The position numbers and the translations under genes were made by a program. This document shows positions 2,612 to 39,004 of a stretch of 39,005 nucleotides of DNA, in pieces (within the stretch, counting starts at the first letter, position 1; each line of letters begins with the position of its first letter). The stretch spans positions 1 through 39,005 of the forward strand of contig CAYHMN010000001.1 in assembly GCA_964357795.1 (NCBI GenBank), read 5' to 3'. Origin of the DNA: an uncultured Candidatus Saccharibacteria bacterium (GTDB lineage: Bacteria > Patescibacteriota > Minisyncoccia > Phycocordibacterales > UBA9973). A model generated the notes under the pieces. That model was given only the letters and a program-made list of their open reading frames with translations, was not told the DNA's origin and did not search any database.

Positions 2612-4114
2612 ATGGCCAAAAATACAATTGTAGAAAATTTAAGAAAACAGATTGAGAAATGGAAAGATGAAGCAAAAGCCGAGAAAGTAGGCCATGTTAT
2701 AGAAGTGTTTGACGGTATTGCGAAAGTCTCTGGGCTCTCTGACTTGAAAGCTTCTGAAATGGTGACATTTGCCTCTGGAGCTACAGGAGTAGCTCTTAAC
2801 CTAGATGAGGATTCAGTGGGTGTCATTGTTCTCGGAGGATTTTATAATATTAAAGAAGGTGATGAAGTAAAGGCTACAGGAGAAATTCTCTCTGTCCCAG
2901 TCGGAGACGCACAAATTGGACGCGTATTAAATGCCCTAGGTGCGCCTATTGATGGCAAGGGCAAAGTCGCTTCAAGTAAGTCCAACCCTATTGAACACGT
3001 AGCATCCGGAGTGATGAGTCGCCAGAGTGTGGACCAGCCAGTGCAGACCGGTATTAAAGCTATTGATGCGATTATCCCTGTAGGCCGTGGCCAGCGTGAG
3101 CTTATCATCGGTGACAGACAGACAGGTAAGACTGCTATTGCAATTGATGCGATTCTCAACCAGAAAGGTCAGAATATGATTTGTGTTTACGTTTCTATCG
3201 GCCAGAAAGATTCTAAGCTTCGCAAACTTCAAACTCGCCTAGAGGAAGGTGGCGCTATGGATTACACAGTTATCGTATCTGCAGGTTCATCCGAAGCAGC
3301 AGCCCTCTCATACATCGCTCCATATACTGGAGTCTCTATTGCAGAATTTTTCATGGACCAAGGCAAAGACGTGCTTATTATCTACGATGACCTTTCCAAG
3401 CATGCAGTGGCATATCGTGAGATCTCACTTCTACTTCGCCGTCCACCAGGTCGTGAAGCATACCCTGGAGATGTGTTCTACTTGCACTCACGCTTGCTTG
3501 AAAGAGCTTGCCGAAGAAATAAAGATTACGGAGGTGGCTCTATTACCGCATTCCCAATTATTGAAACTCAAGGAGGCGACATATCTGCATATATTCCGAC
3601 AAACGTCATCTCTATCACTGATGGACAGATATTCCTCGAAACTGATTTATTCTACAAAGGTATTCGTCCTGCGGTGAACGTTGGTAACTCCGTATCACGT
3701 GTGGGAGGAAGTGCACAGATTAAAGCGATGAAGAAAGTGGCTGGAACATTGAAACTCGACCTTGCGCAGTTCCGTGAACTTGAAGCTTTCTCACAATTCG
3801 GCTCAGATCTAGATGAAGCTACAAAGCGCCAGCTAGAGCGTGGTAAAAGAGCTGTAGAAGTCCTCAAACAACCTCAGTATTCTCCAGTAGGAACAATCAA
3901 GCAAATCGTGACTCTATATGCCCTTGTGAAAGGATATATGGATACAGTGCCAGTAGACAAAATCAAGCAGTTTGAAGAAGAGCTCGCTGACTATGCAGAA
4001 CAAAATGCAAAAGATTTCTATGCAGATATAGAGAAAAGCAGGATGTGGACGGATGAATCGGAAGCAAGCTTGAAAAAAGCGATTGAAGGTTTTGTAAAAG
4101 GGTTTGTAAAATAA
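2612..4114 (+). CDS. atpA: F0F1 ATP synthase subunit alpha
   Basis: 500 aa. Walker A GDRQTGKT. Highly conserved blocks [27 protein letters not shown] and ITDGQIFLE. Confidence 0.97.
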
Positions 4115-4135
4115 GAGCTATGAAGGGTAGGATTT

Positions 4136-5032
4136 ATGTCAAACCAGAAATTAATAAAAAATAGAATAAGGTCAGTGAAGAATACGAAGAAAATCACGAA
4201 AGCTATGGAGCTCGTGGCAGCTTCAAAGATGAAGCGCGCAGTAAATGCAACACTTTCTTCACGACTCTATGCAAACTATTCATGGGAACTTTTGACATCT
4301 TTATCTAGTAAGCTCGATGAGATTACACATCCATTCTTCACTGAGAATATAAAAGAAGGTAAATCTCTTCTTGTTCTCATTACTTCCAATCGCGGACTCT
4401 GCGGTTCATACAATTCTCAAGCTATCAAGAAGGCTCTATCAATACTAAAAACAATAGAGAATGCCGAGATTATCTCAGTCGGCAAGAAAGGCGACAATGC
4501 TATGCGCAGAGTTGGTCAGAATATTATCGCTTCATTTGTAGAAATTCCAGATAATGCAACACTGTCTGACATCCGCCCACTTTCAGAAATTATCACAAGA
4601 AAGTACAAAGAGGGTGTTTATAAGAATGTAAAAGTTATATATACAGACTTCATCTCAGCTCTCACCCAAAAGGCAAATACAAGGCAACTTCTTCCAATAA
4701 GTAAAACTGAAGTGAAGGAAATGATTGAAAGTCTTGCAGAGCAGAAGGATAAAGAAAGTTTGAAAGATTCATCTGTACCATACATATTTGAAGGAGATAC
4801 AAACAAACTTGTAGAAATTCTCGCAGAGAAACTTGTCCGAATGCAGATATACCAGATGGTTCTTGAGTCCAGTGCTTCTGAGCAGTCATCCCGCATGGTC
4901 GCCATGAAGAACGCTAGTGAAGCAGCAGGGGAGATGATAGATGACCTGACCTTAGTATTCAACAAAGCCCGCCAAGCAGGAATCACCCAAGAGATATCAG
5001 AAATTAGTGCCGGTATGGCAAGCGTGAGTTAA
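4136..5032 (+). CDS. atpG: F0F1 ATP synthase subunit gamma
   Basis: 298 aa. N-terminal IKNRIRSVKNTKKITKAMELVAASKMKRA and C-terminal ARQAGITQEISEI are the canonical gamma coiled-coil ends. Confidence 0.93.
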   Translation: MSNQKLIKNRIRSVKNTKKITKAMELVAASKMKRAVNATLSSRLYANYSWELLTSLSSKLDEITHPFFTENIKEGKSLLVLITSNRGLCGSYNSQAIKKALSILKTIENAEIISVGKKGDNAMRRVGQNIIASFVEIPDNATLSDIRPLSEIITRKYKEGVYKNVKVIYTDFISALTQKANTRQLLPISKTEVKEMIESLAEQKDKESLKDSSVPYIFEGDTNKLVEILAEKLVRMQIYQMVLESSASEQSSRMVAMKNASEAAGEMIDDLTLVFNKARQAGITQEISEISAGMASVS

Positions 5033-9159: not shown

Positions 9160-9795
9160 ATGGGTATAATAAATACATTAGAAGTTAACTTAAATAATAT
9201 GGATCCAATAAATCAAACAAGTGGAGGTTCAAATAAGACTTTATATATAGTAATTGGTATTTTAGTTGTTCTACTTATCGGTGGTTACCTATACATGCGT
9301 GGTAATTCTAATGTGAAGGGTAATATGTACGGCGTAGACGTTGATCGCAACTTAGATGGCTCGACTACTTATGAAAGTGGGTATGGAAAAGTAACTACTA
9401 GTCAAAACAAGCTACCTAGTGACTGGCCTTCAGATGTGCCAACTTATCGGAATGCTCAAATTTCACAATCTGGCTCAGTTGACACACAGATCGTAGGTAC
9501 AGAAGCTACTTCAATGGTTATACTAAATACTCCTGATAATTCACAAATAGTGAGTGATTTTTATAAGGCAGAATTAGTTAGTAAGGGTTGGACTATTAAC
9601 GCAGGAATGAGCAGGGAGGGAAACGTGTTTGCAGTCAAAGAAAATCGTATGGTAAGTGTTGGTATAAGTAGTCTAAAAACTGGTGGTTCAATGATTACTA
9701 TGTCCACTGGCATAATTCCAGAATCTCTTAAGAAATCTCTTGATGCTATATCAGCTGCACAGAAAGCAAATCCACAGAATAAAATTCCACAATAA
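9160..9795 (+). CDS. Membrane-anchored hypothetical protein (start may be 9199)
   Basis: 211-aa ORF with a single TM helix LYIVIGILVVLLIGGYLYM followed by a soluble domain. A TATAAT at 9165-9170 lies inside the 5' end, so ATG 9199 (MDPINQ...) may be the real start. Confidence 0.6.
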   Translation: MGIINTLEVNLNNMDPINQTSGGSNKTLYIVIGILVVLLIGGYLYMRGNSNVKGNMYGVDVDRNLDGSTTYESGYGKVTTSQNKLPSDWPSDVPTYRNAQISQSGSVDTQIVGTEATSMVILNTPDNSQIVSDFYKAELVSKGWTINAGMSREGNVFAVKENRMVSVGISSLKTGGSMITMSTGIIPESLKKSLDAISAAQKANPQNKIPQ

Positions 9796-35901: not shown

Positions 35902-36042
35902 AGTTGTTGGTTTTTGGGGGTTAGAAAATTGTTTAATGAGCTAAAAGTTGTTGACTGATATATTAGCATAAACGTCTATTAAAGCAATAGAGTATACTTT
36001 ACTTGGTTATATTAAAATCCTCCCGTTAGGAAGGATTTTTTA

Positions 36043-36297
36043 TTAGGCATCTTTTGCCCCAATGTTTTCAACTAATTCATCTTGTTGCTTCTCTTTTAAA
36101 ATTTCTCGCCTTGCTACAACTTTGCCAATAATGTAAAACGCTAATGATAAAACAAAAAATATTGTAGCTACACTCAAAGCAGGTATCGCATTTTCACCAT
36201 TAAAATATAGATAAGCAAAGAAATAACAAAAGAAAATGAAGAAGCAGACAAAGAGACATTGTGCAACCAAGAAAAGGAAGGTTGATTTGATTCTCAT
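36043..36297 (-). CDS. Hypothetical small membrane protein
   Basis: 84 aa with 2 TM helices. Starts 2 nt after the stop of the upstream secreted-protein gene. Confidence 0.5.
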   Translation of the reverse strand: MRIKSTFLFLVAQCLFVCFFIFFCYFFAYLYFNGENAIPALSVATIFFVLSLAFYIIGKVVARREILKEKQQDELVENIGAKDA

Positions 36298-36299
36298 AG

Positions 36300-36665
36300 C
36301 TAAAATTTTATGTATTGAACATTCTGGTTTCTTTTATCTATGTTCTTTATATCCTCCGGATGCACATATACATATTTAATTATATGTTCATTTGAATCCG
36401 AGTCACAAATCTTTTTTACCAGCTTGCTATCTTTTGGACCATTAAGATTACGAATATAACCTTGCTCGGTGAATTCAATCCCATCTATAAAGCAACGCCT
36501 TACTGTTCTCCTAGTTTTAATAGCAAACTCAACCGAATTTTGAAATTGAGTTTGTGAAAACCAATACTTCATGTCTGGAGCCAGATTATTGGGCAGGTCA
36601 TTTTGAGCATTTACAAAAGTAAAAGAAAAAAATACAGCTATTGCTGAGAATATGAGCTTTTTCAT
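36300..36665 (-). CDS. Small secreted hypothetical protein
   Basis: 121 aa. Signal peptide MKKLIFSAIAVFFSFTFVNAQ and two Cys in the mature part. Promoter at 36712-36739. Confidence 0.55.
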   Translation of the reverse strand: MKKLIFSAIAVFFSFTFVNAQNDLPNNLAPDMKYWFSQTQFQNSVEFAIKTRRTVRRCFIDGIEFTEQGYIRNLNGPKDSKLVKKICDSDSNEHIIKYVYVHPEDIKNIDKRNQNVQYIKF

Positions 36666-36711
36666 AATCGGAGTTTTTTGAGTTAAAATTTAAAATACCA
36701 GTATTAAAGTC

Positions 36712-36739
36712 ATAGTACCACTCAGCATTATGTAGTCAA
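36712..36739 (-). promoter_or_regulatory. Promoter of the 36665-36043 gene pair
   Basis: Minus strand reads TTGACT, 16-nt spacer, TACTAT. Confidence 0.45.
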
Positions 36740-36745
36740 TCCTAT

Positions 36746-36774
36746 TTGACATATTACAATTTTTGATGTAAAAT
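36746..36774 (+). promoter_or_regulatory. Promoter of the PAP2-like gene
   Basis: TTGACA (36746-36751), 17-nt spacer, TAAAAT (36769-36774). Confidence 0.6.
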
Positions 36775-36796: not shown

Positions 36797-37387
36797 ATGA
36801 AAAAGACTACTCAAAAGAATTGGGTAGTCTTGGCTACCCTATCAATATTCTATGGATTGTATTTGATTGTAAACCACTTGCCAATGGATAGGATAGAATT
36901 GCCATTCATGATATATGAAGAAGATATACCCTTCATCCCGTGGACAATTGCTATCTACCTTTCTTTATTCTTTCAAGCAGTACTTTTCATAAAGTACATA
37001 CCTGAGAAAATATTTTGGAGGGTTATGCTACTCGGATTTGTGATGCTCTTGATACATATTATCATCTTCTGTTTTTTCCCAGTAAAATATCCAAGGGGAA
37101 ACTATGAGAGTGATAACTTGATACTGGAGCTGTTCCGATATATTGATACTGCAGGCAACTGCCTTCCATCTTTGCATGTATCTTGCGCGATATTCTTCGC
37201 TAACTTATATGTAATATGGGAAAAATCAATGTGGCGGAAAGTAGTGATGTGTATATGGTCAGCATTGATAATCGTATCTGTGCTAACAGTAAAGCAACAC
37301 TATATCTGGGATATTCTCCTAAGTATAGTAATCACAAGGCTATTTATAATAATTCCCTTTGAAAGTAAACTACGACTTCGTCCATAA
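36797..37387 (+). CDS. PAP2-superfamily (PAP2_3-like) membrane phosphatase/phosphotransferase
   Basis: 196-aa multi-TM protein. LPSLHVSCA and KQHYIWDIL motifs correspond to the C2/C3 motifs of the PAP2_3-type family. Confidence 0.6.
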   Translation: MKKTTQKNWVVLATLSIFYGLYLIVNHLPMDRIELPFMIYEEDIPFIPWTIAIYLSLFFQAVLFIKYIPEKIFWRVMLLGFVMLLIHIIIFCFFPVKYPRGNYESDNLILELFRYIDTAGNCLPSLHVSCAIFFANLYVIWEKSMWRKVVMCIWSALIIVSVLTVKQHYIWDILLSIVITRLFIIIPFESKLRLRP

Positions 37388-37403
37388 CGAGGTCGTATTT
37401 TTT
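37372..37403 (+). terminator. Intrinsic terminator of the PAP2-like gene
   Basis: ACGACTTCG/CGAGGTCGT stem (one G-U pair) spanning the stop codon, followed by ATTTTTT. Confidence 0.7.
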
Positions 37404-37415
37404 ATTGTAAGAGTG

Positions 37416-37703
37416 TTAGGACAAACCTTGTTCACGAAGCCATATTGCTGCCGCATCATTGTCTATCCCCTTTATAGGAGGCAGCGCATCTTCTGATTTT
37501 ATACTACGTTTTTTAGTACTTAATTTTATAGCTCCTGGATCATCGGAAGAGTTATCTATCCTCTCACCTGTAACTGAACTATATTTCTCTCCAAATACAT
37601 CTTCATCTAAATCATGTAGTTCTTCTGTATGCACTATGGACATATTGAGAGATTTTTTCTCTAATTCCGCTCTTTTATTATTTGGATTAAATTTTTCTGA
37701 CAT
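37416..37703 (-). CDS. Acidic hypothetical protein (cassette C)
   Basis: 95 aa from ATG 37703; the track ORF extends upstream across the promoter and repeat. TATAAT lies 6 nt before the ATG. Sequence is low-complexity and acidic. Confidence 0.45.
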   Translation of the reverse strand: MSEKFNPNNKRAELEKKSLNMSIVHTEELHDLDEDVFGEKYSSVTGERIDNSSDDPGAIKLSTKKRSIKSEDALPPIKGIDNDAAAIWLREQGLS

Positions 37704-37709
37704 ATGTAT

Positions 37710-37738
37710 ATTATATTTAATAAAGGTGTAGTTTGCAA
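37710..37738 (-). promoter_or_regulatory. Promoter of cassette C (leaderless geometry)
   Basis: Minus strand reads TTGCAA, 17-nt spacer, TATAAT, then 6 nt and the ATG at 37703. Confidence 0.55.
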
Positions 37739-37747
37739 CGTAACCTT
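37733..37747 (-). repeat. Degraded third copy of the tRNA-3'-end plus -35 repeat
   Basis: Minus strand reads AAGGTTACGTTGCAA, compared with AGGGTCACAGATTGACAA in the two intact copies. It holds the same position relative to the 38-nt spacer. Confidence 0.4.
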
Positions 37748-37750
37748 TTG

Positions 37751-37788
37751 TATGCAGATCAAGAAATTCAAGATCTAAAAACAGAAAA
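37751..37788 (-). repeat. Conserved 38-nt inter-cassette spacer, copy 2
   Basis: 34 of 38 nt identical to 38281-38318. Contains AGATC...GATCT inverted ends around a CTTGA-ATTT-CTTGA direct repeat. Confidence 0.85.
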
Positions 37789-37817
37789 CTCACAGAAAAT
37801 TATGGTTTCCTGTGAGT
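37777..37817 (-). terminator. Terminator of cassette B
   Basis: Minus strand reads ACTCACAG/CTGTGAGT stem followed by TTTCTGTTTTT. Confidence 0.75.
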
Positions 37818-37821
37818 CATT

Positions 37822-38151
37822 TTAAATAGCTCTTCTCAAAAATACATAAAGGCATAAAGACCAGCACGCAACACTAAACAGACCTGAAATAATCAGAGCG
37901 CCGAGTGGTGCACCTAGCCCACTCATTATGCCAAGTAACATCCACCATACAGAGAAATTATATGGAAATCCAAACATGTAAAATACACCAATCCATGCTG
38001 GAATACTCAAAACCATAGGCAATTTTTTTATCTGCTCTTTTGATACTAAATCGGTGATAATTGCAGGTAATAGCAAACAAGCCGACAAAATAATACTAAG
38101 CAAGTAAATCCACTCCCATGAATATGCTGATGATTCCTGTAGATAGATCAT
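37822..38151 (-). CDS. Hypothetical membrane protein (cassette B)
   Basis: 109 aa from ATG 38151, preceded by a strong RBS AAGGAGGG 4 nt upstream. 3-4 TM helices. Has its own promoter and terminator. Confidence 0.55.
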   Translation of the reverse strand: MIYLQESSAYSWEWIYLLSIILSACLLLPAIITDLVSKEQIKKLPMVLSIPAWIGVFYMFGFPYNFSVWWMLLGIMSGLGAPLGALIISGLFSVACWSLCLYVFLRRAI

Positions 38152-38215
38152 ATTCCCTCCTTTTTTAAAAAGAATGATTTGCAAAATTGCAGAAAAAAAT
38201 CGTAATTAAAATTAG

Positions 38216-38242
38216 ATTATAACAATATTTAGTTTTTGTCAA
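38216..38242 (-). promoter_or_regulatory. Promoter of cassette B
   Basis: Minus strand reads TTGACA, then 15 nt, then the extended -10 TGTTATAAT. Confidence 0.55.
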
Positions 38243-38276
38243 TCTGTGACCCTTTGCGTACAGAATTGGAATTCTG
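38236..38276 (-). repeat. Decayed tRNA-Glu 3' half (T-arm-like hairpin plus exact 18-nt repeat)
   Basis: Minus strand reads CAGAATTCCAATTCTG-TACGCAA-AGGGTCACAGATTGACAA. The last 18 nt (38236-38253) are identical to 38922-38939. The hairpin aligns with the tRNA T arm. Confidence 0.7.
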
Positions 38277-38280
38277 TGTA

Positions 38281-38318
38281 TATGCAGATTAAGGAATTTA
38301 ACATCTAAAAACAGAAAA
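38281..38318 (-). repeat. Conserved 38-nt inter-cassette spacer, copy 1
   Basis: 34 of 38 nt identical to 37751-37788. Sits directly after the cassette A terminator. Confidence 0.85.
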
Positions 38319-38354
38319 TCCTACCAAAAGCAGAATATCTGCAGGTAGGATTTT
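38307..38354 (-). terminator. Terminator of cassette A
   Basis: Compound stem AAAATCCTACC/GGTAGGATTTT with inner GCAGA/TCTGC, followed on the minus strand by CTGTTTTT. Confidence 0.75.
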
Positions 38355-38372
38355 AATAAGATTTTTTCTTCA

Positions 38373-38786
38373 TTACTCTTCTAAAAAGTTGAAATTCACA
38401 AAGCAAGAAAGAAGATATGTACTTGTAACACAGAACAGATCCAGGATAAAAGATACTGAATTAAAAGGATATTTCTTTTGACTTGTAACTGGAATAATCT
38501 CCGCAAAAGCAATCACAATAATACAGCACAATAACAAGCGAAAGCCTGCGTTGTATTTTTTTGTTGCAAGTCGGGCAAGATAATTCAAGATCAACGTAAT
38601 AATCATAAATATAACCAGCATCGTACAGGTTGCTAGTCCAAAAATTATTACTTCTGAAGCAAAACTCATGGGTTTTTTACTCCATCCTCCCATTAGTATG
38701 TCAAATGCTATTGGAAGAATATATATTCCCAAAGCTATTGCCAAAATTAAATTGACAATTAAAAGCCATTTTTCTGTCTTTTTCAT
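38373..38786 (-). CDS. Hypothetical 4-TM membrane protein (cassette A)
   Basis: 137 aa. Consensus promoter at 38900-38928 immediately downstream of tRNA-Glu. Terminator at 38307-38354. Confidence 0.55.
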   Translation of the reverse strand: MKKTEKWLLIVNLILAIALGIYILPIAFDILMGGWSKKPMSFASEVIIFGLATCTMLVIFMIITLILNYLARLATKKYNAGFRLLLCCIIVIAFAEIIPVTSQKKYPFNSVSFILDLFCVTSTYLLSCFVNFNFLEE

Positions 38787-38899
38787 GTTGAGTAGTTTAA
38801 GTTAAAAGTTTAGTATTTTATTTTATTCACCTTTTAAAAAGTAAATAAAATAAAATACCAAACCAACTCAAAACCATTTCAAAGAACAGCCTTTTTTTT

Positions 38900-38928
38900 A
38901 ATATAGCATATTTATATGCTATTGTCAA
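38900..38928 (-). promoter_or_regulatory. Promoter of cassette A abutting the tRNA 3' end
   Basis: Minus strand reads TTGACA (starting 4 nt after the tRNA discriminator base), 17-nt spacer, TATATT. Confidence 0.6.
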
Positions 38929-38939
38929 TCTGTGACCCT
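38922..38939 (-). repeat. 18-nt repeat: last 7 nt of tRNA-Glu plus 11 nt of 3' flank
   Basis: Exact second copy at 38236-38253. Confidence 0.9.
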
Positions 38940-39004
38940 ACAGAGAATCGAACTCTGATTACCGCCTTGAGAAGGCGATGTCCTAACCGTTAGACGATAG
39001 GGCC
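38933..39004 (-). tRNA. tRNA-Glu (anticodon CUC), CCA not encoded
   Basis: The reverse complement GGCCCTATCGTCTAACGGTTAGGACATCGCCTTCTCAAGGCGGTAATCAGAGTTCGATTCTCTGTAGGGTCA folds by hand into a cloverleaf: 7-bp acceptor, 4-bp D stem, 5-bp anticodon stem with loop TTCTCAA, and T arm CAGAG/TTCGATT/CTCTG. Confidence 0.9.

What the first reader, a model, noticed from the sequence alone, without database searches (positions are those of the whole stretch)
37416..39004. Chain of single-gene cassettes behind tRNA-Glu, each bounded by a copy of the tRNA 3' end plus a -35 box
Read on the minus strand from tRNA-Glu (39004 to 38933).

The repeat: the last 7 nt of the tRNA (AGGGTCA) plus the next 11 nt (CAGATTGACAA, carrying a consensus -35) form an 18-mer (plus-strand 38922-38939). 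It recurs exactly at 38236-38253 and in degraded form (AAGGTTACGTTGCAA) at 37733-37747. The second copy is preceded by a perfect hairpin CAGAAT/TCCA/ATTCTG (38261-38276) that aligns with the tRNA T arm CAGAG/TTCGATT/CTCTG. It therefore looks like a decayed tRNA 3' half.

The units: each copy is followed by a -10 box, one small gene and an intrinsic terminator. The genes are a 137-aa 4-TM protein, a 109-aa TM protein with an AAGGAGGG RBS, and a 95-aa acidic protein with leaderless geometry. After the first two genes there is a 38-nt conserved spacer (38281-38318 versus 37751-37788, 34 of 38 identical) with AGAT..ATCT inverted ends.

Interpretation: duplicated tRNA 3' ends are the classical scar of site-specific integration into tRNA genes. 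Here they delimit 0.5-0.7 kb single-gene units stacked head to tail. The logic resembles a cassette array, but each unit has its own promoter and terminator. No integrase, transposase or attC-type site is visible in the window.
Basis: partly seen in the sequence, partly recalled or inferred. Interest (0 to 1): 0.72.

Follow-up and report, generated by a model that had tools for sequence, protein, structure and literature searches.

The report
Gene cassettes stacked behind tRNA-Glu
Behind a tRNA-Glu gene of an ultra-small groundwater bacterium, three tiny genes are separated by copies of the tRNA's tail fused to a promoter; other genomes show the same design, with serine recombinase genes inserted at exactly that nucleotide, so this is most likely a stack of insertion scars at a recombination hot spot.

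Summary
tRNA-Glu(CTC) sits at 38932-39004 (-). The 18-mer AGGGTCACAGATTGACAA (tRNA tail plus a -35 box) occurs exactly twice. A 38-nt spacer recurs at 34/38. Three ORFan genes each have their own promoter and terminator.

New evidence: the exact 18-mer recurs in two other metagenomic lineages. There it again follows tRNA-Glu and again sits in same-strand arrays before unrelated small genes. Each copy is preceded by a pseudo-T-arm whose TTCCAAT motif lies exactly 5 bp further from the junction than the real T-loop. That is the attP-versus-attB geometry of large serine recombinases (LSRs).

Left and right halves reassort exactly at ...AGGGTCAC|. Sister strains of the window organism carry four different sequences after that nucleotide. 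One is an LSR gene; another lineage has a 5-kb LSR plus Rep element there.

Best reading: att-site scars from serial site-specific insertion at the tRNA-Glu 3' end. The right arm supplies the promoter for whatever lies downstream.

Caveats: the window has no recombinase. The g1 and g3 polymorphisms in relatives do not break at the 18-mer. Two identical right arms are not explained by canonical LSR chemistry. New variant of a known kind (SCC-, CIME- or integron-like accretion).

The parts
38932..39004 (-). tRNA-Glu(CTC). No encoded CCA. Its 3' end ...GTAGGGTCA|C is the anchor: an attB-type left arm with the T-loop TTCGATT at -19..-13 from the junction.
38922..38939 (-). Junction J0: 18-mer AGGGTCACAGATTGACAA, made of the last 7 nt of the tRNA plus C plus AGATTGACAA (carrying the -35 TTGACA).
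   Evidence: the same junction follows the tRNA in L095
38900..38928 (-). Promoter P1: TTGACA, 17 nt, TATATT with an upstream TG (11/12).
38793..38876 (-). Long hairpin (36 predicted pairs) in the g1 5' leader, kept in L007 and L009.
   Evidence: (I1)
38373..38786 (-). g1: 137-aa hydrophobic ORFan. The transcribed unit 38887->38306 is 92% identical in L004-L009 but sits in a different context there.
38306..38345 (-). g1 intrinsic terminator: CCTACC...GGTAGG plus the TTTTCTGTTTTT tail.
38281..38318 (-). 38-mer copy 1: terminator T-tail plus a 26-nt AGAT..ATCT spacer.
38254..38276 (-). Pseudo-T-arm (CAGAATTCCAATTCTG plus TACGCAA). TTCCAAT lies at 38265-38271, which is -24..-18 from the junction and 5 bp further out than in the real tRNA.
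38236..38253 (-). Junction J1: the second exact 18-mer (attR-like: pseudo-tRNA arm plus AGATTGACAA arm).
38216..38242 (-). Promoter P2: TTGACA, 15-nt spacer, extended -10 TGTTATAAT.
   Evidence: read directly; not listed because of the spacing
37822..38151 (-). g2: 109-aa hydrophobic ORFan with RBS AAGGAGGG at 38155-38162. No relatives found apart from the same population.
37787..37818 (-). g2 intrinsic terminator.
37751..37788 (-). 38-mer copy 2.
37733..37750 (-). Junction J2: decayed copy CAAAAGGTTAC|GTTGCAA. The pseudo-T-arm is deleted.
   Evidence: not significant on its own
37710..37738 (-). Promoter P3: TTGCAA, 17 nt, TATAAT. Leaderless geometry.
37416..37703 (-). g3: 95-aa acidic protein. 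It belongs to a small family of 90-130-aa proteins (about 17 short 50%-identity clusters at E<=1e-3).
37371..37397 (.). Hairpin shared by the convergent g3 and PAP2-like genes (bidirectional terminator).

Best explanation
The 3' end of tRNA-Glu (...AGGGTC-AC-AGATTGACAA...) is a chromosomal attachment site in this group of Patescibacteria-like bacteria. It lies in the 4 nt between the end of the tRNA and the -35 box of the next promoter, so an insertion there breaks neither.

Elements insert at this nucleotide by site-specific recombination, most likely by large serine recombinases. Each insertion pushes the older material away from the tRNA and leaves an attR-type scar. The scar has two arms. 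The left arm comes from the element and mimics the tRNA: TTCCAAT, about 11 nt, then AGGGTCAC. The right arm, AGATTGACAA plus a -10 box, is a ready-made promoter for whatever lies downstream.

The window shows the result without the enzyme: tRNA | g1 | scar J1 | g2 | decayed scar J2 | g3. Each unit is reduced to one small accessory gene with its own terminator.

Shown:
- the repeats and their significance;
- the same modules in arrays in other lineages;
- reassortment exactly at CAC|;
- LSR genes at that nucleotide;
- strain polymorphism at that nucleotide.

Inferred:
- that an LSR made the window's scars;
- that the crossover is the AC dinucleotide;
- the order of insertion;
- promoter activity.
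For: 1. The repeats are real.

2. The exact 18-mer gave 8 metagenome loci, of which 6 are biological.
- L095 has tRNA-Glu | 18-mer, as in the window, although the tRNA region is only 85% identical.
- L093/L094/L096/L098 and L099 have non-tRNA copies before unrelated genes. Each is preceded by a pseudo-T-arm and followed by a -10 box.

3. In all three lineages TTCCAA(T/A) sits at -24..-18 from the junction, against T-loop TTCGAwT at -19..-13 in the real tRNA. PMC3783163 reports the same geometry for LSR sites: the ZD motif is 5 bp closer to the centre in attB than in attP.

4. Pseudo-arm matches lie only on the tRNA strand: 4, 4, 2, 2 and 2 against 0.

5. The halves reassort at CAC|. The pseudo-arm is followed by AGATTGACAA, GAGTACAAAA, AACACAAAAA, GAACAAGCG or AGATTTTCC. 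L098 and L094, 96% identical, diverge at that point.

6. In L094 a 5-kb element (511-aa LSR plus a rolling-circle Rep) lies between tRNA|CAACGAAG and pseudo-arm|AGATTGACAA.

7. In sister strains of the window organism (g3 nearly identical) the tRNA is followed by CGAGAGAAAC (an LSR element), AAATTTTGCAG, AAATCTTCAGCC or ACGACCAAAAAG.

8. The LSR family next to the tRNA is widespread. In 55 of 80 GTDB loci it abuts the 3' end of a tRNA, mostly tRNA-Glu.

9. No tyrosine integrase was found among ORFs of at least 130 aa in the five array loci.
Against: - There is no recombinase in 39 kb of window, and the contig ends at the tRNA.
- The g1 unit in L004-L009 is conserved only from about the transcription start to the terminator tail (38887->38306). 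It does not carry the 18-mer, the -10 box or the spacer.
- Homology between g3 and L002 starts about 12 nt before the ATG, some 25 nt from J2. The window's own cassettes have therefore moved by other breakpoints.
- Canonical LSR integration gives one B' arm. Two identical AGATTGACAA arms (in the window and in L094) require incoming units whose P' arm equals B', or a duplication.
- The right arms show no dyad symmetry with the left arms (read).
- An 18-bp direct repeat is more typical of tyrosine integrases, although CcrAB elements also leave direct repeats (PMC6222049).
- The A67G variant of the tRNA in L105 and L110 could mean that exchange sometimes starts upstream of CAC.
- There is no general excess of AGGGTCAC copies in the 58 LSR loci with tRNA-Glu.
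Confidence: 0.55

Rival explanations
1. An active cassette system. Each unit (gene plus pseudo-tRNA site) can be excised as a circle and re-inserted next to the tRNA by a recombinase supplied in trans. This would be integron-like, but with a serine recombinase and with the promoter created at the junction.
For: - Units are 0.36-0.7 kb with one gene each, in three lineages.
- Identical 18-bp junctions flank g1.
- Cassette contents differ completely between the related L095 and L099.
- The pseudo-arm is conserved in two blocks with a variable 11-nt linker, as expected for a protein-binding site and not for neutral decay.
- LSRs are present at the site in sister strains.
Against: - No circular junction or empty site was seen.
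- g1 in L004-L009 lacks the junction modules.
- attB x attR-type pairs are not substrates of canonical LSRs.
- J2 is decayed.
Confidence: 0.22
2. Classical tyrosine-integrase islands. The 18-mer is the identity core (O) of attL/attR, and the 38-mer lies in a P arm carrying arm-type sites. The integrase was lost or lies beyond the contig end.
For: - An exact 18-bp direct repeat includes the tRNA 3' end.
- A conserved 38-mer lies 35-73 nt upstream of the core.
- L026 shows a perfect 42-nt duplication of a tRNA-Glu 3' half starting in the anticodon loop, the classical signature.
- The tRNA position-67 variant in L105 and L110.
Against: - No Phage_integrase domain was found in any array locus or in the window.
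- The recombinases actually found at this nucleotide are LSRs.
- Pseudo-arms are not copies of the tRNA. They carry the same three changes in three lineages: G>C, T>A and +5 nt.
Confidence: 0.13
3. No site-specific recombination. The tRNA-proximal promoter module was copied locally (slippage or unequal crossing-over) and is kept because it is a good promoter or an operator. The tRNA nucleotides are passengers.
For: - Every copy is a promoter with a gene behind it.
- The breakpoints of g1 and g3 in relatives are not at the 18-mer.
- IG1 and IG2 share terminator tail, spacer and promoter as one block.
Against: - Copies exist with the pseudo-tRNA half but other right halves, so the half that is not a promoter is the conserved one (L094 #3/#4, L095 #2, L099 #3, L098).
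- Recombinase genes are inserted exactly at the half-site boundary.
- Copies show a strict same-strand orientation.
- There are no other copies in 39 kb.
Confidence: 0.1

Closest known systems
SCCmec / ECC elements and their composite islands (CcrAB/CcrC large serine recombinases at the 3' end of rlmH)
   Same: - A large serine recombinase is the enzyme.
- Insertion is at the very 3' end of a conserved housekeeping gene, without destroying it.
- Elements are flanked by direct-repeat att sites.
- Multiple attR sites and recombinase-less remnants are stacked in tandem.
- Cargo is highly variable (PMC6222049).
- The best NCBIfam matches of the LSRs found here are CcrB/CcrA, far below cut-off.
   Different: - The target is a tRNA gene, not rlmH.
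- Units are 0.4-0.7 kb with one gene, not 20-80 kb.
- The junction carries a promoter.
- The host is Patescibacteria-like.
- The LSRs are not Ccr orthologues (84-141 bits against cut-offs of 700-900).
Accretion of integrative elements and cis-mobilizable elements (CIMEs) at tRNA or gene 3' ends
   Same: Arrays of att-bounded modules that lack their own recombinase, produced by repeated site-specific integration at one site (review PMC5704250; details from my own knowledge).
   Different: Known cases use tyrosine (sometimes serine) integrases of ICEs or IMEs, and the modules are kilobases long. No conjugation or mobilisation genes appear here.
Integron cassette arrays
   Same: Head-to-tail single-gene units next to one primary site. 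Contents are variable and mostly of unknown function. The newest unit is expected next to the anchor.
   Different: - There is no IntI tyrosine recombinase.
- There is no attC: the IG1 single strand folds no better than shuffles (z -1.7).
- Each unit has its own promoter and terminator.
- The anchor is a tRNA gene.
Phage-type large serine integrase attP/attB sites (A118/LI, Bxb1, phiC31)
   Same: - Bipartite half-site, with the distal motif shifted 5 bp between the two kinds of left arm (PMC3783163).
- Exchange at one point.
- The integrase gene is adjacent to one junction (L094).
   Different: - The right arms are not symmetric to the left arms.
- 18 bp of identity spans the junction.
- Arrays with repeated right arms occur.
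- No recombination directionality factor was identified.

Membership tests
Large-serine-recombinase attachment site / LSR integrative element | A gene for a recombinase with Resolvase + Recombinase + zinc-ribbon domains next to one junction | tested here: not met
   None in the 39-kb window (ORF translations; no such protein). Met in relatives: L002/L103, sister strains, and L094.
Large-serine-recombinase attachment site / LSR integrative element | Exchange at a single central dinucleotide, so that left and right arms reassort at one point | tested here: met
   At least 8 different right arms follow ...GGTCAC|, and AGATTGACAA follows several different left arms. The exact dinucleotide (AC) is inferred.
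Large-serine-recombinase attachment site / LSR integrative element | attP-type and attB-type half-sites share motifs, with the distal (ZD) motif 5 bp further out in attP | tested here: met
   Left arms only: TTCCAAw at -24..-18 in the pseudo-arms of three lineages, against TTCGAwT at -19..-13 in the tRNAs. The rule comes from PMC3783163.
Large-serine-recombinase attachment site / LSR integrative element | Imperfect dyad symmetry of each site around the crossover | tested here: not met
   Right arms (AGATTGACAA..., CAACGAAG...) are not inverted copies of the left arms. This was read by eye.
Large-serine-recombinase attachment site / LSR integrative element | Recombination of the sites by the enzyme | not testable with these tools
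   Needs an in vitro or in vivo assay.
Integron | IntI-type tyrosine recombinase with an adjacent attI and Pc promoter | tested here: not met
   No Phage_integrase hit in the array loci. None among the window ORFs next to the array.
Integron | attC sites: imperfect palindromes that fold as single strands | tested here: not met
   IG1 as ssDNA: -12.4 kcal/mol, z -1.69, only a 7-bp hairpin.
Integron | Promoterless cassettes | tested here: not met
   Each unit has -35/-10 boxes and a terminator.
Classical tRNA-targeting tyrosine-integrase island | Tyrosine integrase adjacent to attL or attR | tested here: not met
   The region beyond the contig end is unknown.
Classical tRNA-targeting tyrosine-integrase island | Direct repeat that is an exact copy of the tRNA 3' segment | tested here: inconclusive
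   Only 7-8 tRNA nt plus 11 flanking nt are exact. The T-arm part is 13-14/18 with a 6-nt gap. A true 42-nt copy exists in L026.
SCC-like / CIME-like accretion array | Two or more att-type repeats in direct orientation downstream of one conserved target gene, with recombinase-less modules between them | tested here: met
   Window J0, J1 and (J2). L093 has 4 copies; L095 and L099 have 3-4 each.
SCC-like / CIME-like accretion array | Presence/absence polymorphism of modules between strains, with ends at the repeats | tested here: inconclusive
   Met at the tRNA junction in sister strains and at pseudo-arm #3 in L098 versus L094. Not met for g1 and g3 of the window.

The most novel reading that the evidence does not exclude
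Patescibacteria carry an integron-like gene-capture platform run by a large serine recombinase. The tRNA-Glu 3' end is the primary site. Single genes travel as mini-circles carrying an attP-type pseudo-tRNA arm. Insertion in the 4-nt gap between the tRNA and the -35 box gives every captured gene a promoter without harming the tRNA. The recombinase is supplied in trans, for example by the tRNA-abutting LSR elements seen in sister strains.
Probability: 0.22. Interest if true: 0.85.

Novelty: new variant of a known kind. Interest (0 to 1): 0.64.

Why it matters
Integration into tRNA genes is textbook biology for tyrosine integrases. Here the enzymes found at the site are large serine recombinases, and the accreted units are as small as integron cassettes and get their promoter from the att site.

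If confirmed, three things follow:
- A gene-capture and gene-display mechanism would be added to a phylum (CPR/Patescibacteria) whose mobilome is almost unknown and which cannot easily be cultured.
- The assembly breaks at tRNA-Glu in such MAGs would be explained.
- It would yield natural LSR/attB/attP sets with a defined, conserved and harmless landing site (a tRNA 3' end), which interests genome engineers.

The 5-bp-shift signature could also serve as a search rule for LSR att sites in metagenomes.

Tried and rejected
- The 18-mer and the 38-mer in IMG/VR viral contigs: 0 hits. The window region against GenBank phages: tRNA matches only. No sign of a phage origin.
- Both LSRs against IMG/VR: nothing for the L002 type, one 28% relative for the L094 type. 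No free attP was recovered.
- A partial tRNA at IG1 by Rfam at E<=10: not detected. The pseudo-arm is too short or too altered for the model.
- attC-like folding of IG1: rejected.
- g1 versus g2 paralogy: rejected, E=17. The units are not a tandem gene duplication.
- Function of g1, g2 and g3: no Pfam, PHROG, PADLOC or NCBIfam match. g1 and g2 are near-ORFans. g3 has about 17 distant short relatives of unknown function. Contexts of two of them were uninformative.
- General enrichment of extra AGGGTCAC copies around the 58 LSR loci that carry tRNA-Glu: none, 11 same-strand against 12 opposite. Arrays are not a universal companion of that LSR.
- Two of the eight 18-mer hits (L097, L100) look like chance. 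They have no tRNA or promoter context, and L100 lies inside a coding region.
- Look-ups with the PAP2-like protein and with P0009 gave no new arrangement.
- Literature searches found no description of such arrays or of tRNA-abutting LSRs in Patescibacteria.
- Structure prediction of the small proteins was not attempted: the alignments are too shallow.
Full report
**What the window is.**
The 39-kb window is a chromosomal fragment of a small-genome bacterium. It carries an ATP synthase operon, LexA, a RecD/Pif1-like helicase, ribosomal protein L9, PRPP synthetase and similar genes. G+C is about 37%. Contigs from 0.1-um-filtered Hainich groundwater are 99.9-100% identical to it (L001, L010, L011, L102). 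Relatives of the neighbouring elements all come from Patescibacteria MAGs. The contig ends 1 nt upstream of tRNA-Glu(CTC) at 38932-39004 on the minus strand. An independent assembly also breaks inside this tRNA.

**Check of the observation.**
- The 18-mer AGGGTCACAGATTGACAA (minus strand) is exact at 38922-38939 and 38236-38253. It occurs nowhere else even with 3 mismatches; 0.01 matches are expected.
- The 38-mer recurs at 34/38. Its alignment score is 56 against a maximum of 32 in 500 shuffles.
- An unconstrained local alignment of the tRNA-g1 spacer against the g1-g2 spacer runs from the T-arm through a 6-nt gap, the 18-mer and the promoter. It scores 47 against a maximum of 37.
- The three ORFs, the RBS, the leaderless geometry of g3, the promoters and the terminators are as stated.

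There are three corrections.
- The third copy is not significant by itself. It is recognisable only because it follows the second 38-mer in register, with the hairpin deleted.
- Promoter 2 has a 15-nt spacer and an extended -10.
- The first 12 nt of the 38-mer are the terminator tail.

g1 and g2 are not paralogues.

**The same module in other genomes.**
An exact-match scan of JGI metagenome contigs for the 18-mer gave eight loci. Two of them look like chance.
- L095: the 18-mer again overlaps the 3' end of a tRNA-Glu, although the tRNA region is only 85% identical and the flanking genes are unrelated.
- L099, a relative of L095: the tRNA is followed by about 360 nt. Then comes a pseudo-T-arm (gattccaatcccgactaact) plus the 18-mer plus an isochorismatase gene, and then a second pseudo-arm with another right half and another gene.
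- L095 itself has three further, progressively decayed copies.
- L093/L094/L096/L098, a third lineage: four pseudo-arms (ggttccaaatYgctcccctt-AGGGTCAC) lie on the tRNA strand downstream of a tRNA-Glu. Two of them carry the exact 18-mer, 451 nt apart, with one small membrane-protein gene between them.

A loose pattern for the pseudo-arm matches only on the tRNA strand in these loci: 4, 4, 2, 2 and 2 hits against 0. Cargo differs completely between the related L095 and L099. It includes an isochorismatase, a NERD nuclease, an AbiEii-like ATPase and ORFans.

**The halves reassort at one nucleotide.**
The left half ...AGGGTCAC is followed by AGATTGACAA (seven times), GAGTACAAAA, AACACAAAAA, GAACAAGCG, AGATTTTCC, AAAATAGAAC, CGAGAGAAAC or CAACGAAG. 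L098 and L094 are 96% identical up to pseudo-arm #3 and unrelated immediately after CAC.

In the window's own lineage, a near-identical g3 protein (P0007) led to 14 contigs. In these the tRNA-Glu(CTC) is followed, directly after GGTCAC, by four different sequences. It is positive for the tRNA junction.

**Recombinases at that nucleotide.**
In L002/L003/L103 and related contigs, the sequence after the tRNA is a large serine recombinase gene with Resolvase, Recombinase and zinc-ribbon domains. In L103 it lies between the convergent tRNA-Glu(CTC) and tRNA-Glu(TTC), ahead of pgl-gnd-zwf.

This LSR family is very common in Patescibacteria MAGs, at 62-95% identity over 80 loci.
- In 71 of 80 loci it is flanked by inverted repeats of mostly 50-150 nt (one of 180 nt), most of them perfect.
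- In 55 loci the outer end of one repeat overlaps the last 3-6 nt of a tRNA. The tRNA is mostly Glu, but also Arg, Leu, Pro, Ala, Ser and tmRNA.
- Both orientations occur.

Independently, L094 carries a 5-kb element with a different 511-aa LSR and a rolling-circle Rep. It lies between tRNA...GGGATCAC|CAACGAAG and pseudo-arm...AGGGTCAC|AGATTGACAA, which is a plain attL/attR pair. No tyrosine integrase occurs among the ORFs of at least 130 aa in the five array loci.

**Geometry of the pseudo-arm.**
Count from the C that precedes the AC of GGTC-AC-AG. The genuine tRNAs have the T-loop TTCGAwT at -19..-13. The pseudo-arms of all three lineages have TTCCAAw at -24..-18, with an unconserved 10-11-nt linker before AGGGTCAC.

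Each pseudo-arm resembles the T-stem of its own host tRNA (TTCTGT, TCCCGAC, CTCCCC). All three nevertheless share the same three differences from a tRNA: G>C, T>A and +5 nt.

Rutherford et al. (PMC3783163) showed for large serine integrases that the zinc-ribbon-domain motif lies 5 bp closer to the centre in attB than in attP. Under that rule the tRNA is an attB-type left arm and the pseudo-arm an attP-type left arm. Pseudo-arm plus AGATTGACAA is then an attR. This is an inference from geometry. The right arms show no matching symmetry.

**Proposed mechanism.**
The crossover point lies in the 4 nt between the tRNA 3' end and the -35 box. Insertions therefore spare both the tRNA and the downstream promoter. 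After each insertion the old promoter arm travels with the old downstream gene and is now preceded by the element's pseudo-tRNA arm. Repetition, followed by decay of the inserted elements, gives tRNA | unit | scar | unit | scar.

The window shows this state:
- J0: intact, attB-like.
- J1: an exact scar.
- J2: decayed, with the pseudo-T-arm lost but the 38-mer kept.

**What does not fit.**
1. The g1 unit in L004-L009 is 92% identical only from 38887 to 38306. That is 14 nt past the -10 box through to the end of the terminator tail, roughly the transcribed region. It is followed there by other DNA and an NTPase gene.
2. Window and L002 become homologous only about 12 nt before the g3 ATG.
3. All 14+ sister contigs have the tRNA divergent from g3, with a pseudo 5' half of the tRNA in between. 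The window arrangement is supported by four assemblies of one site. It needs an extra inversion, one end of which would be at the tRNA 3' junction.
4. Two identical right arms cannot arise from one canonical attP x attB event.
5. L105 and L110 carry a position-67 variant of the tRNA. L026 shows a classical 42-nt duplication of a tRNA-Glu 3' half. More than one kind of event therefore acts at these tRNAs.

**Comparison with known systems.**
- The nearest LSR-based analogue is the SCCmec/ECC family. There CcrAB insert at the 3' end of rlmH and leave direct-repeat att sites, multiple attR sites and recombinase-less remnants (PMC6222049).
- The nearest conceptual analogues are CIME/ICE accretion (PMC5704250) and integron arrays.
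- The present case fails the defining tests for integrons: no IntI, no attC fold, and the cassettes are not promoterless.
- It also fails the tests for tyrosine-integrase islands.
- The LSRs seen are not Ccr orthologues.
- I found no paper describing tRNA-abutting LSRs or such arrays in Patescibacteria.

**Verdict.**
The finding is real and is not a generic promoter duplication. It is best filed as a new variant of site-specific accretion at a conserved gene's 3' end. The variant features are a tRNA-Glu target, LSR-type sites, cassette-sized units and a promoter built into the att site. Whether the units are still individually mobile is open.

Noticed in passing
L013 135-1801; L018 9878-11544; L014-L092 generally; L103 (rc) 2747-4410: A large-serine-recombinase family is widespread in Patescibacteria MAGs. 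Its gene is bracketed by inverted repeats of about 115-140 nt, mostly 100% identical. The ORF starts inside one repeat and reads through the other. The outer end of one repeat overlaps the last 3-6 nt (CAC/CACCA) of a tRNA in 55 of 80 loci, and both orientations occur. A conserved promoter-like segment of about 50 nt lies outside the other repeat. It looks like a self-inverting or IS-like unit. I found no description of it.
   Followed up: partly
L103 (reverse complement) 2673-4480: In sister strains the LSR lies between convergent tRNA-Glu(CTC) and tRNA-Glu(TTC). Its two ends belong to different repeat types, so the element is chimeric. The pgl-gnd-zwf genes follow.
   Followed up: partly
L002 1428-1478 (also L003, L103-L113): A pseudo 5' half of tRNA-Glu lies 49 nt upstream of the intact tRNA, between it and the divergent g3. 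It has the acceptor 5' strand, a D-arm disrupted by 16 nt, and an anticodon arm with an altered loop.
   Followed up: no
window 38793-38876 (-): The g1 leader forms a hairpin of about 36 bp that ends a few nt before the start codon. No Shine-Dalgarno sequence is visible. The hairpin is kept in L007 and L009, with one compensatory and several one-sided changes.
   Followed up: partly
window 38887 and 38306: Homology of the g1 unit with L004-L009 begins just after the -10 box and stops at the end of the terminator T-tail. The conserved block therefore roughly equals the predicted transcript, while the linkers are unrelated. No explanation.
   Followed up: partly
window 35970-36760: A 790-bp segment carrying the 121-aa (signal peptide) and 84-aa (holin-like, weak hit) genes is absent from L002 and from L103-L108. 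It is bounded by a short direct repeat, ATGCT(G/A)A. This is an ordinary indel unrelated to the tRNA-type junctions.
   Followed up: partly
L094 1057-6004 (= L093 122-5067): A 5-kb integrated element with a 511-aa serine integrase overlapping the tRNA 3' end, a REP_ORF2-G2P rolling-circle Rep and three ORFans. Probably a small integrative plasmid or ssDNA-phage-like element.
   Followed up: partly
L093 6000-8760: A 2.66-kb segment (peptidase S51-like and other genes) is flanked by direct repeats of at least 128 nt. Each repeat consists of a pseudo-arm plus GAGTACAAAAATGAGC...
   Followed up: no
L026 (reverse complement) 9290-9640: tRNA-Glu(TTC) is followed by about 220 nt, then a perfect 42-nt copy of its 3' part starting in the anticodon arm, and then the LSR element. 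This is the classical duplication signature.
   Followed up: no
L004 511-560 and 1167-1205: Two consecutive intergenic regions share a motif of about 34 nt, TAGACTNATTCRAACATC...GTTCGGAGC. The first also contains cactGTAGGGTA just before the -10 box of the NTPase gene, possibly another pseudo tRNA-Glu end.
   Followed up: no
L004-L008 position ~115-150 versus L009 and window 38680-38700: The g1 copies in L004-L008 have a 1-nt frameshift that L009 restores with a longer A-run downstream. g1 may be decaying, or these may be homopolymer errors.
   Followed up: no
L114 1-417 and 940-1056: A 59%-identical g3 homologue, again leaderless, lies between a reverse-transcriptase-like ORF (YADD motif) and two tRNA genes.
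   Followed up: no
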